Shown: positions 48,001-51,000 of the stretch, one piece after another
Position numbering within the stretch: the stretch's first letter is position 1
Layout of the letters: each line of letters begins with the position of its first letter
DNA from: Ophelia neglecta
Taxonomy: Eukaryota
Assembly: GCA_965285935.1 (NCBI GenBank)
Contig: OZ260662.1
Location: 68,882,001 to 68,946,000, forward strand
Length of the DNA stretch: 64,000 nt
Reading direction: 5' to 3'
Position numbers: made by a program

Positions 48001-51000
48001 GGCATTCAATATCATGAAGACGATAAGCTCTTTGGGGTTACTTTAATGACTTTTTTTGAAACTACCATTTACAGGCAAGACGCGTCCATCCTTCAGAAGA
48101 ATACAAAGTTTTCTCGGCTCCAGTCTGATGCTGAAGAAGATGTCGATACCAGCGGCACACCAACTAGGGGTACTCAAAATTGCCAGACAGAGGTAAAGGT
48201 TACGACAGCTGTCTGGCAATATAGTTTGAATGTTGGGCCTTGTAGCACAATGAAAACTACTTTCAGCCGGGTGTAATACAATCAATGAAGACAGATGACA
48301 GAATAGCATCTTGCTACGACATACATAATCAGTCTTGAGGACCTGTTGAAGCAAGGATCCCGATCTCCTAAAGTCTTTACTTTGACCAGAACAGATATAA
48401 TATGCCTGATTGTGGCACCTTCAGACATCAATGCTAGTGGCATATTCAACAAAATAATTTTGTTTTACAGGTATGATCTACCGGTCGAGGCCATTGCCCC
48501 TTTAATGAATCTTTTGCCGGTATTGCTGAAGCCCAACCCGATTTGTGCTGGCCCGGATATGTCAGAGATTGTCCATGTAACCCCCGGGACTTGTCCCTGT
48601 CTTCTAAACAACCACAAAAGACGTTGCTATCCATATGCCAAGTACCGCACCATAGACGGGTCTTGTAACAACCTGGGCAGGCCACTCTGGGGAAAATCCA
48701 ACCGACCGCTGGCCAGGTACCTGCCCTCGGATTACGCTGACGGTAAGGAACGCTTTTAGGTAATTTTAAGTGTCGTCAGGTGTACGTTGAAGACACTGGG
48801 TGTGCTTTACGGTGACATTTTGGGAGATACGAAGATATTTTGCATTTGAATTAACAATTGCTTATGGTCATAGTTGATTCAGTTTTAATATTCATATTCA
48901 TATGAAAATAGAGGTTTCGAAATAATGCCTGTCGTAGTACTTAGTCATCCTTGGTAGGACTAAACGGCGCAGCGGACTGCTTTCCGTCAGTCTACATTCA
49001 CCTATATGCGGCCGCGCGGACAGCGCCGCAGTGTTATTCCTGCAAATGACTACTAGGACAGCCAACCTTTCGACGTTGGTCAAGAACCTCTATTTTTACA
49101 TGGATATAATTTTTTCTTTACTGAATCGACTATGACGAATCGAATGTTTAAATGTGACCATAGCATATCACCACTCTATATCGCCGGAAAAATAGCGCAT
49201 TTTGGTGAAGTCGGAAAATTTCGGCTTCCGTCAGACGGCTGATGGCTTCCGGTATGGCAATAAGGGCCTACTTTGAAAAATGTAAACAACATAATAAAAC
49301 ATAGAGCTGCCCTTTGAAGCCACGTAACTTAGCTAACACTAGTCTGATCGAAGATTCGTCAAATTTAATGTTCATGTTAAATGAATAATTGACCATTACT
49401 GCAGGCATAGGTGATCCCAGAGTGAGTGTCAGCGGAGGTCCTCTCCCCACTGTACGTAAGATTACCCTGGAGCTCTTCGGAGATACCGACAGCCCCAGCC
49501 ACCTAGCCACCGCCATGCACATGCGCTTTGGACAGTTCCTGGACCACGACCTTGACCGTACTGCTATTGCCAAACTGACGACCACGGAAGACGGCTCGGG
49601 GCCGACCATGGACGTGACCTGTGGGGATGATGGGTGTAGTACCGAGGGAGAGGAGAACCGAGCCTGCTTCCCGATCCCGATACCCGACGGAGATCCGGAC
49701 TTCGGTGATCAAAAGTGTCTCATGTTTGTCCGTACTGAGGAAGGCTTACTTGACGACTGTCGATTAAGTAAGTTCCGGAAAATTATTTATTTGAGGCCAG
49801 TCAAGGATAAGAAATACATTTCCATTATTATTATGGCCCAGTGTACGAATATTATGTCAATTTGGTGCCCAGTCGCCTGGACTCACCCTTGGTTGATAAT
49901 CCGCGAAGACGTACATGTACTAGACAGCTATTTTGAGACCGTGGGACGAAATGAAGTCTAGTAAACCAGAATTTGTGACTGGTGTCCTATTTATAATGAA
50001 TACCTAGGGATTCTAGACAGACTGCTTATATACTAGATTTATTAATTATTTTAAGAACGGGCGAATCCAGGGTTAAAGTAAGTAAATGTAGTTTTATTTT
50101 GACCTTTCATGTGGGGGACTCCCTTTACTATCACACCGCCGTGCCACACCGTATACACTGTATGTATGGGCACAGCACAAGTTAGTATGGTCTCTACTTA
50201 GAATAGAGGCCTTTAAATGTTGGCCCACACTTATCACGCTTCACTGGTTATTAATAGTGTGCAGTCTGACTGAATTTCACAAGTCACCCAGTGCAGACAG
50301 AATTTGAACCAAATGGAGGGATAAATGCTAGGCTTGTAATTCCTGTGAAATATGTAAAATTGTGTTGTTGTTTTTTCTGATTAAACAGACAGCCAATATT
50401 TCTGAAATTTCATATTCAATTTTAGACATACCAATCATTTCAAAATCTATCAATATTGAGCCTGATGTTTTGATTTATATATTACTCACTAATTTGGTCA
50501 CTCTGGCCCACTGTTAACAATGACAGCAGTGTAATGTGGGTAATTATATGCTGTTGACACCTGATGGGAAGTACAAATATTCTATAGCAATTTCCTGCCT
50601 ATTGTAGAAAGCTTCGGAAACTGATACCGCGAGAGTTAATACATACACCCACTCACATATGTGTCCCTCTCCACAGGGTCAATCTCTAAAACATTTCTAG
50701 GCCTAAAATATGTTAGTATACTTTACAATTCAATAATAATACTTAGAACTGATAACCTTACAGGCCTAATAATAGGCCTATGTAGGCCTTTTTGTACGGA
50801 AAACGGTAAGACATTATTGCCTAGCACCTTACGCCATTTCTTTGGACAGATTGTGTGTACAATGTAAAACATAAAAGCATGCCTAATAATTGTGGCTGAT
50901 TGAATATCAATATATGACTGAGCAAACATGCAGCAGCTGATCATGAGACAACCACCGCATTGTCATTCCCACTGTTCAGTTCGCCCCTAGTGTTCAAATA

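What the first reader, a model, noticed from the sequence alone, without database searches (positions are those of the whole stretch)
49515..49773. Gene-conversion tract homogenising the distal-His exon of the inverted paralogues
Seen: 49515-49773 is the reverse complement of 26971-27229 with only about 5 mismatches in 259 nt by eye, three of them in the last ~25 nt. The first ~110 nt of the same exon, the neighbouring exons (many synonymous changes) and the introns are strongly diverged. The tract begins just before FGQFLDHD. Inference: recent ectopic conversion, favoured by the inverted arrangement, keeps the distal heme pocket identical while the CBM14 and pro regions diverge.
Basis: partly seen in the sequence, partly recalled or inferred. 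Interest (0 to 1): 0.68.

Follow-up and report, generated by a model that had tools for sequence, protein, structure and literature searches.

The report
Gene conversion between inverted peroxidase paralogues
Two old, oppositely oriented copies of a peroxidase gene share a 233-base stretch that is almost identical while the rest of the genes has diverged heavily, which is the ordinary signature of one copy having overwritten part of the other during DNA repair.

Summary
Window 49515-49773 is the reverse complement of 26971-27229 with 5 mismatches in 259 nt. The first 110 nt of the same exon have 32 mismatches, and the introns cannot be aligned.

The two loci are matching exons of two intact CBM14 + animal-haem-peroxidase genes: PxB on the minus strand and PxC on the plus strand, head-to-head and about 22 kb apart. 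A third, distant paralogue (PxA) lies in the same window.

The core tract is 49515-49747 (233 nt, 77 codons). It has 2 synonymous and 0 non-synonymous differences (dS 0.04), against dS about 1.2 over 399 background codons. None of 10,000 permutations gave a run that long.

Local constraint does not explain this. PxA is saturated at synonymous sites in the tract (pS 0.63-0.67). Relatives from other species are only 39-71% identical there. No Rfam family matches and no unusual RNA fold is predicted.

I found a second, weaker tract in another exon (52243-52376, dS 0.18).

Non-allelic gene conversion is the best reading. The ideas that the inverted arrangement favours it, or that it serves the haem pocket, are not shown. 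Reads and close orthologues were not available, so an assembly or polishing artefact is not excluded.

This is an ordinary phenomenon in a new place.

The parts
49515..49747 (+). Conversion tract, copy in PxC (exon e3). It covers 77 codons, from MHMRFGQFLDHD to ...FVRTEEGL.
   Evidence: 2 mismatches in 233 nt against PxB. Sd 2 over 50.3 synonymous sites, Nd 0, dS 0.041. 0 of 10,000 permutations reached the run length.
26997..27229 (-). Conversion tract, copy in PxB (exon e3).
   Evidence: Reverse complement of 49515-49747, with coordinates mapped. Both internal differences are synonymous C/T changes.
49405..49767 (+). Exon e3 of PxC (363 nt). It encodes the An_peroxidase distal-His region.
   Evidence: AG acceptor and GTAAGT donor. 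Pfam PF03098, E 1.2e-17. It aligns to the myeloperoxidase GQLLDHDLD region.
26977..27339 (-). Exon e3 of PxB (363 nt).
   Evidence: Splice sites read. Pfam PF03098, E 9.7e-20.
52243..52376 (+). Second, weaker low-divergence segment in exon e5 of PxC. It is a candidate older or shorter conversion tract.
   Evidence: 8 mismatches in 134 nt, against 11 in 44 and 28 in 77 in the rest of the exon. 44 codons, dS 0.175 against 1.33 for the rest of e5. With tract 1 masked, the third-position run tests gave 746, 127, 6 and 1 of 10,000 for 0, 1, 2 and 3 allowed mismatches.
25315..25448 (-). Second low-divergence segment, copy in exon e5 of PxB.
   Evidence: Coordinates mapped; alignment shown.
47006..58857 (+). 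PxC gene as far as traced: a CBM14 ORF segment, pro-region exons, peroxidase exons e1-e10 and a stop codon. The 5' end was not determined.
   Evidence: Exon coordinates. CBM_14 match, E 3.7e-07. All exon frames are open.
22022..34081 (-). PxB gene as far as traced, head-to-head with PxC. The 5' end was not determined.
   Evidence: Exon coordinates. CBM_14 match, E 3.8e-08. Exons e3-e10 have the same lengths as in PxC.
14173..14517 (-). Exon of the third paralogue PxA that matches e3. It was used as the outgroup.
   Evidence: tblastn, 46% aa identity. In the tract, pS against PxB/PxC is 0.63-0.67 and aa identity is 52%.

Best explanation
The tract is a non-allelic (interlocus) gene-conversion tract.

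PxB and PxC are an old inverted duplicate pair of intact CBM14 + animal haem peroxidase genes. Their synonymous sites are saturated and their introns cannot be aligned.

The inferred mechanism is as follows. A DNA break inside exon e3 of one copy was repaired by homologous recombination, most simply by synthesis-dependent strand annealing without crossover. The template was the other copy, about 22 kb away on the same chromosome or on the sister chromatid. About 233 bp were overwritten (49515-49747 and 26997-27229). Two synonymous C/T differences have accumulated since.

The flanks are only about 71% identical, which is poor substrate for homology search. I therefore infer that this segment has been converted repeatedly. 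It would be an island that stayed similar enough to keep converting while the rest of the gene escaped. The measured dS would then date only the latest event, at roughly 3% of the synonymous depth of the duplication.

A second segment in exon e5 (52243-52376, dS 0.18) looks like an older or shorter event of the same kind.

What is shown: the mosaic divergence pattern and the exclusion of local constraint. What is inferred: the repair pathway, the recurrence and the direction of transfer. The direction is unknown.
For: (1) Synonymous collapse. The tract has 77 codons with Sd 2 over 50.3 sites (pS 0.04, dS 0.041) and Nd 0. The 5' part of the same exon has 36 codons with pS 0.69 and dS 1.86. The background has 399 codons with pS 0.607, dS 1.24 and pN 0.143. 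Fisher p = 2.7e-15.

(2) Run-length permutations. 0 of 10,000 reached the observed 233-nt run (maximum 88) or the 77-codon third-position run (maximum 43).

(3) It is not local constraint. PxA against PxB/PxC in the tract gives pS 0.63-0.67, aa identity 52% and two indels. Six homologues from other species are 39-55% identical to the tract, and the nearest fragment, P0006, is 71% identical. PxC-P0006 identity is 22 of 34 in the flank and 55 of 77 in the tract, while PxC-PxB goes from 26 of 36 to 77 of 77.

(4) There is no sign of an embedded RNA element. The window has 0 Rfam matches at gathering score. Fold z-scores are +0.54 and +1.73 on the two strands.

(5) Both genes look functional, so neither copy is a decaying pseudogene. 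Frames are open, splice sites are conserved, and background pN/pS is about 0.24.

(6) The tract length fits known values. The abstract of Harpak et al. (10.1101/135152) gives a mean tract of 250 bp and a GC bias for human non-allelic conversion. GC3 here is 0.65 in the tract and 0.64/0.68 in the e5 segment, against 0.51/0.47 in the background (Fisher p 0.033 and 0.004).

(7) A second tract with intermediate dS (0.175) gives the process time depth.
Against: No reads could be examined, so an assembly or polishing artefact is not excluded.

No orthologues close enough exist in the searched protein sets. The best is a 124-aa unnamed fragment at 66-68% identity. The phylogenetic-discordance test could therefore not be run.

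On the 3' side only 20 exon bases remain (3 mismatches) before an unalignable intron, so the return to background divergence is clear only on the 5' side.

The flanks at about 71% identity are poor substrate for homologous repair. A single recent event needs the extra assumption of earlier homogenisation.

The GC3 excess is modest, and some unconverted exons reach similar values: e8 of PxC is 0.65 and e4 is 0.55-0.58.

The second tract was found post hoc. Its zero-mismatch run test is not significant (746 of 10,000), and it lies on a protein segment that is well conserved across phyla (49-67% to the full-length homologues).
Confidence: 0.8

Rival explanations
1. Assembly or polishing artefact. 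Reads from one paralogue were mis-mapped onto the other during consensus polishing, or a local collapse occurred, and this wrote one copy's bases into the other.
For: It cannot be excluded with the tools at hand, because no reads were available. The tract (233 nt) is of the order of a short-read length. The identity is near-perfect.
Against: Two differences remain inside the tract. The flanks at about 71% identity and the unalignable introns give reads unique anchors within about 110 nt on one side and 20 nt on the other. A second segment with intermediate divergence (dS 0.175) and a raised GC3 in both segments point to a process with time depth. If the true divergence had been at background level, about 60% at synonymous sites, reads would not cross-map.
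Confidence: 0.09
2. Nucleotide-level constraint without conversion. The tract would hold an embedded functional element, such as an RNA structure, an antisense transcript or splicing signals, or would be under extreme codon bias, and this would freeze synonymous sites in both copies.
For: The tract begins at the most conserved motif of the family, and its protein identity to other species is somewhat above the exon average.
Against: PxA is saturated at synonymous sites in the same segment (pS 0.63-0.67) and has indels there. Relatives are only 39-71% identical at the protein level. No Rfam family matches. Folding energy is no better than for shuffles on either strand. Equally or better conserved protein segments, such as the end of e7 and the 3' part of e2, show ordinary synonymous divergence.
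Confidence: 0.03
3. A conversion-like replacement from another donor: either a reverse-transcribed mRNA (cDNA-mediated conversion) or a third paralogue outside the window that converted both copies.
For: The identity stops close to the exon end. A donor outside the window cannot be seen.
Against: The tract does not continue into the next exon. e4 begins diverged and has dS 1.87. Three mismatches occur before the exon end, so nothing calls for a spliced donor. The only other paralogue in view, PxA, has no nucleotide similarity to PxB or PxC by blastn.
Confidence: 0.05

Closest known systems
Non-allelic gene conversion (NAGC) tracts in duplicate gene families, as surveyed in humans (Harpak et al., bioRxiv 10.1101/135152; abstract and outline read)
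   Same: A short converted tract (mean 250 bp there, 233 bp here). GC bias is reported there, and GC3 is mildly raised here. The paralogues are mosaic.
   Different: That abstract says conversion slows as duplicates diverge until they 'escape'. Here the genes as a whole have escaped (dS above 1), yet one or two islands still look recently converted. The organism is different: an invertebrate, apparently annelid-like.
Conversion between adjacent inverted paralogues in Caenorhabditis, for example the hsp16 inverted-repeat modules and hsp70-7/hsp70-8 (review PMC3966223; passages read)
   Same: Neighbouring gene copies, head-to-head or tail-to-tail, that are homogenised by interlocus conversion. 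A tract estimate of more than 191 bp is quoted there.
   Different: Those pairs are close together (hundreds of bp to a few kb) and similar over most of their length. Here the copies are about 22 kb apart and only 233 + 134 nt of roughly 1.6 kb of compared coding sequence are homogenised.
Long-lasting partial concerted evolution in mammalian gene pairs, for example the inverted pair BMP8A/BMP8B 235 kb apart (PMC2720389; passages read)
   Same: An inverted pair in which only part of the gene is kept highly similar by ongoing conversion.
   Different: [quoted passage not shown] Here each tract lies inside a single exon and the introns cannot be aligned.
Exon-scale conversion between the oppositely oriented RHD/RHCE genes, and arm-to-arm conversion in Y-chromosome palindromes (recalled from memory; not checked in any call)
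   Same: Intrachromosomal conversion between inverted copies without loss of the spacer.
   Different: Palindrome arms are homogenised along their whole length. The resemblance is recalled only.

Membership tests
Interlocus (non-allelic) gene conversion tract | A contiguous segment in which paralogue divergence, including at synonymous sites, is significantly below that of the rest of the genes | tested here: met
   dS is 0.041 in the tract against 1.24 in the background. 0 of 10,000 permutations reached the run length. Fisher p = 2.7e-15.
Interlocus (non-allelic) gene conversion tract | Divergence returns to background on both sides of the tract, giving a mosaic rather than a young duplication | tested here: met
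   5' side: 32 mismatches in 110 nt. 3' side: 3 in the last 20 exon nt, then an unalignable intron (40 of 60). The neighbouring exons have pS 0.54 (e2) and dS 1.87 (e4). The 3' side is short, so it is the weaker of the two.
Interlocus (non-allelic) gene conversion tract | The low divergence is not explained by local constraint, meaning distances to outgroups do not collapse in the tract | tested here: met
   PxA against PxB/PxC in the tract: pS 0.63-0.67 and aa identity 52%. P0006 identity is 55 of 77 in the tract against 22 of 34 in the flank, while PxB-PxC goes from 26 of 36 to 77 of 77.
Interlocus (non-allelic) gene conversion tract | Phylogenetic discordance: paralogues group by species inside the tract and by orthology outside it | not testable with these tools
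   No close orthologues were found. The best hits are a 124-aa fragment at 66-68% identity and annelid and brachiopod proteins at 42-52%. No collection of eukaryotic genomes was available.
Interlocus (non-allelic) gene conversion tract | The identity is present in the DNA molecules themselves, not produced by assembly | not testable with these tools
   No reads and no second assembly were available.
Interlocus (non-allelic) gene conversion tract | GC-biased composition of converted sequence. This is supportive rather than strictly defining. | tested here: inconclusive
   GC3 is 0.65 in the tract against 0.51/0.47 in the background (p 0.033 and 0.004), but e8 of PxC also reaches 0.65.
Animal haem peroxidase (Pfam PF03098) | Significant match to the family profile | tested here: met
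   Exon e3 of PxC has E 1.2e-17 and of PxB E 9.7e-20, both above the curated cut-off. The PxA N-terminal ORF has E 5e-11.
Animal haem peroxidase (Pfam PF03098) | Catalytic and haem-linking motifs present. The residue roles (distal Gln/Asp/His motif, Arg/Glu motif, proximal-His motif) are recalled from the myeloperoxidase literature. | tested here: met
   Both copies carry FGQFLDHD (e3), the motif with Arg and Glu (DVRANE in PxC, DGRLNE in PxB; e5) and AAFRFGHS (e6). The e3 motif aligns to the matching myeloperoxidase motif. Activity was not tested.
CBM14 / peritrophin-A chitin-binding domain (PF01607) | Significant match to the family profile upstream of the peroxidase exons in both genes | tested here: met
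   PxC ORF segment 47006-47305 has E 3.7e-07 and PxB 33845-34081 has E 3.8e-08, both above the cut-off. That these exons are spliced to the peroxidase exons is inferred from position and strand only.

The most novel reading that the evidence does not exclude
The two homogenised segments may be self-sustaining conversion islands inside duplicates that have otherwise escaped conversion (dS above 1). On this reading selection retains them because both enzymes need the same distal-pocket segment and the same following helix, while selection against conversion keeps the CBM14, pro-region and other exons distinct. That would make this locus a natural case for studying how selection shapes the map of conversion within one gene pair.
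Probability: 0.12. Interest if true: 0.45.

Novelty: new member of a known kind. Interest (0 to 1): 0.25.

Why it matters
For annotation and phylogenetics, the e3 tract, and probably part of e5, will make PxB and PxC look like very young duplicates. This will distort trees, dS-based dating and tests for selection unless the tracts are masked.

The locus is a clean invertebrate example of exon-internal conversion between old paralogues, with sharp limits, an in-window outgroup and a second tract of different age. That could be useful for estimating tract length and GC bias in a little-studied group.

It does not change any general understanding. Interlocus conversion between neighbouring paralogues in either orientation is well described.

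Tried and rejected
1. Two word-index searches with the e3 exon peptide gave 3 hits ('longer') and 2 hits ('near'). One exhaustive representative search gave 593 hits at E <= 0.001, of which the best is 68% identical and 124 aa long. No hit is close enough to be an orthologue of PxB or PxC separately.

2. PDB sequence search. There were 0 hits at E <= 1e-5. Repeated at E <= 1 it gave 24 distinct sequences, the best being myeloperoxidase at 1.4e-5. I used it only to place the distal motif.

3. RNA-element idea. The window has 0 Rfam matches and no unusual folding. Rejected.

4. A third tract in the conserved 3' part of exon e2. That segment is 75% identical over 165 nt with ordinary third-position changes. 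Rejected.

5. Conversion involving PxA. blastn finds no nucleotide similarity between PxA and PxB or PxC. Rejected.

6. Link to the Pif1-helicase-like ORF in the PxB intron. It lies about 1.5 kb upstream of e3, and nothing connects it to an in-frame replacement inside the exon. I did not pursue it.

7. Literature. Three searches found general work on gene conversion. No paper in the listings shown (10, 8 and 10 listed of 95, 162 and 98 matching) was about conversion between invertebrate peroxidase paralogues. One search (8 listed of 86) found nothing on CBM14-peroxidase gene pairs. The one paper I opened (PMC13425148, two passages) only lists the domains.

One search failed on a stop codon in my coordinates and was corrected.

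9. Steps left out. A joined spliced model was neither searched nor folded; all searches used single-exon translations. No structure prediction, complex prediction or genome-contig scan was run, because that collection holds only bacteria and archaea.

Full report
**What is at the coordinates**

The window holds no N. I do not take it for human. The nearest named relatives of its peroxidase exons are annelid proteins (Arenicola marina, Ridgeia piscesae, Owenia fusiformis) and a brachiopod protein (Lingula anatina), at 42-52% identity, plus a scallop protein at 35%.

A self-comparison of the window by blastn shows ten exon-sized inverted matches between 22.0-32.8 kb and 48.1-58.9 kb. Identities run from 72% to 90%, and nothing matches between the exons. 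tblastn with a scallop chorion-peroxidase-like protein shows three peroxidase genes:
- PxA, about 10.9-15.5 kb, minus strand.
- PxB, 22.0-34.1 kb, minus strand.
- PxC, 47.0-58.9 kb, plus strand.

PxB and PxC lie head-to-head. Each has an upstream ORF segment that matches CBM_14.

I read the splice sites of ten exons, e1-e10, in both genes. Exons e3-e10 have identical lengths in the two genes. All frames are open. The motifs FGQFLDHD, DVRANE/DGRLNE and AAFRFGHS are present in both. Their catalytic roles are recalled from the myeloperoxidase literature. The first motif aligns to the matching myeloperoxidase motif.

The spliced models were searched exon by exon only. The joined step was left out.

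**The observation**

Window 49515-49773 against the reverse complement of 26971-27229 has 5 mismatches in 259 nt, at 49547, 49622, 49748, 49751 and 49755. The exon containing it is 49405-49767 in PxC and 27339-26977 in PxB. Its first 110 nt have 32 mismatches. Beyond them the introns are at random level: 40 of 60 and 43 of 60 mismatches in ungapped register.

The three mismatches near the end fall within 8 nt, so the tract proper is 49515-49747: 233 nt with 2 mismatches.

**Is it more than the paralogue background gives?**

Nei-Gojobori counts, exon by exon:

| Exon | dS |
|---|---|
| e4 | 1.87 |
| e5 | 0.62 |
| e6 | 1.60 |
| e7 | 0.92 |
| e8 | 0.80 |
| e9 | 1.14 |
| e10 | 1.15 |

Exon e3 splits into two parts.
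- 5' part: 36 codons, pS 0.69, dS 1.86.
- Tract: 77 codons, 2 synonymous differences over 50.3 sites, none non-synonymous, dS 0.041.

The background without the low segments is 399 codons with pS 0.607, dS 1.24 and pN 0.143. Fisher's test on synonymous counts gives p = 2.7e-15.

I permuted mismatch indicators over e3-e10 (1584 nt, 315 mismatches). No run with at most 2 mismatches exceeded 88 nt in 10,000 trials, against 233 observed. At third positions (528 codons, 191 mismatches) the maximum was 43 codons against 77 observed. Within e3 alone, the zero-mismatch third-position run of 41 codons was reached in 2 of 10,000 trials.

**Constraint or conversion?**

If the tract were simply slow-evolving, its distance to outgroups should collapse too. 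It does not.
- PxA against PxB or PxC in the tract has pS 0.63-0.67 and 52% amino-acid identity, with two indels in the loop after the distal motif.
- Six homologues from other species are 39-55% identical to the tract. The nearest fragment, P0006, is 71% identical. This is no more than several other segments of the protein reach.
- PxC-P0006 identity is 22 of 34 in the flank and 55 of 77 in the tract, while PxC-PxB jumps from 26 of 36 to 77 of 77.
- No Rfam family reaches its gathering score anywhere in the window.
- The tract folds no better than shuffled sequence on either strand (z +0.54 and +1.73).
- Protein segments that are as well or better conserved show ordinary synonymous change, for example the 3' part of e2 and the end of e7.

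Nucleotide-level constraint is therefore rejected. A copy-over event between PxB and PxC remains as the explanation.

**A second tract**

The sliding third-position profile shows a second trough in exon e5. Segment 52243-52376 (PxB 25448-25315) has 8 mismatches in 134 nt, against 11 of 44 and 28 of 77 in the rest of that exon. Over 44 codons its dS is 0.175, against 1.33 for the rest of e5.

With tract 1 masked, the third-position run tests gave 746, 127, 6 and 1 of 10,000 for 0, 1, 2 and 3 allowed mismatches. Fisher's test on synonymous counts gives p = 1.2e-05.

This segment was found post hoc and sits on a protein stretch conserved across phyla, so I rate it as probable, not certain. It does not include the Arg/Glu motif at the start of e5, where the two copies differ in amino acids.

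**Mechanism**

The best reading is non-allelic gene conversion. A break in e3 of one copy was repaired from the other copy about 22 kb away without crossover, and about 233 bp were replaced. The two remaining differences are synonymous C/T changes.

The length fits the mean tract of 250 bp estimated for human non-allelic conversion (abstract of 10.1101/135152). GC3 is mildly raised in both segments: 0.65 and 0.64/0.68, against 0.51/0.47 in the background (p 0.033 and 0.004). This agrees with the GC bias reported in that abstract but is not distinctive, since e8 of PxC also reaches 0.65.

The flanks are only about 71% identical. The same abstract says conversion slows as duplicates diverge. I therefore infer that the segment has been converted repeatedly and that dS 0.04 dates only the last event. 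This recurrence, the repair pathway and the direction of transfer are inferences, not results.

Recent ectopic conversion is supported.

'Favoured by the inverted arrangement' is not tested here. The passages I read of a Caenorhabditis review (PMC3966223) state that conversion is seen in both orientations, that the relative rates are undetermined, and that one genome-wide study suggested the same orientation is the more likely. An inverted mammalian pair kept partly similar by conversion (BMP8A/B) is described in PMC2720389 (passages).

'Keeps the distal haem pocket identical' is an adaptive gloss that the data do not need. The tract carries a variable loop along with the motif, and the second tract lies elsewhere.

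An artefact of polishing or assembly cannot be excluded without reads. Three things argue against it: the two internal differences, the unique flanks close to the tract, and the second tract of intermediate age.

**Limits**

No eukaryotic genome collection or reads were available. Per-exon trees with orthologues could not be built. Supplementary files of papers were not consulted, and none of the claims here depends on them. The 5' ends of the genes were not determined.

**Verdict**

This is a real and statistically clear mosaic, best explained by interlocus gene conversion. It is a new instance of a well-known process, worth masking in evolutionary analyses of these genes, and of modest general interest.

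Noticed in passing
window 39780-42265: A 140-bp tandem satellite of 17.8 copies at about 89% match lies between the 5' ends of the head-to-head genes PxB and PxC, near the middle of the inverted arrangement.
   Followed up: partly
window 28810-29247 (-), inside the PxB intron between e2 and e3: An ORF matches the Pif1 helicase 2B domain (E 6.1e-16), probably a remnant of a mobile element. This intron is 4106 nt in PxB but 662 nt in PxC.
   Followed up: partly
exon e3 of all three genes (49405-49767, 26977-27339, 14173-14517); proteins P0003 and the hits: Many database relatives match only residues about 1-64 or about 63-120 of this exon. 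P0003 carries an insertion of about 80 residues at that point. This suggests an intron there in other species that all three genes in this window lack.
   Followed up: partly
window 52454-52459: Exon e5 of PxC appears to use a GC donor (GCAAGT), whereas PxB has GT at the matching position. This is the only reading that keeps the two proteins in register.
   Followed up: no
window 47006-47305 (+) and 33845-34081 (-): Both genes have a CBM_14 (peritrophin-A chitin-binding) ORF segment upstream of the peroxidase exons. The two segments are only 46% identical in amino acids. Splicing to the peroxidase exons is inferred from position and strand only.
   Followed up: partly
window 3022-3201, 60186-60365 and 16465-16560: A dispersed repeat is present in three copies at 78-86% identity, one of them inverted. 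It lies outside the peroxidase exons.
   Followed up: no
window 62701-63402 (-): An uninterrupted 234-aa ORF matches the dienelactone hydrolase family (E 3.5e-40).
   Followed up: no
window 3488-3723, 15240-15299 and 53211-53301: Three short tandem repeats: 79 bp x 3.0; 18 bp x 3.3 inside the 5' ORF of PxA, the ORF that also holds the start of its peroxidase domain; and 20 bp x 4.6 in a PxC intron.
   Followed up: no
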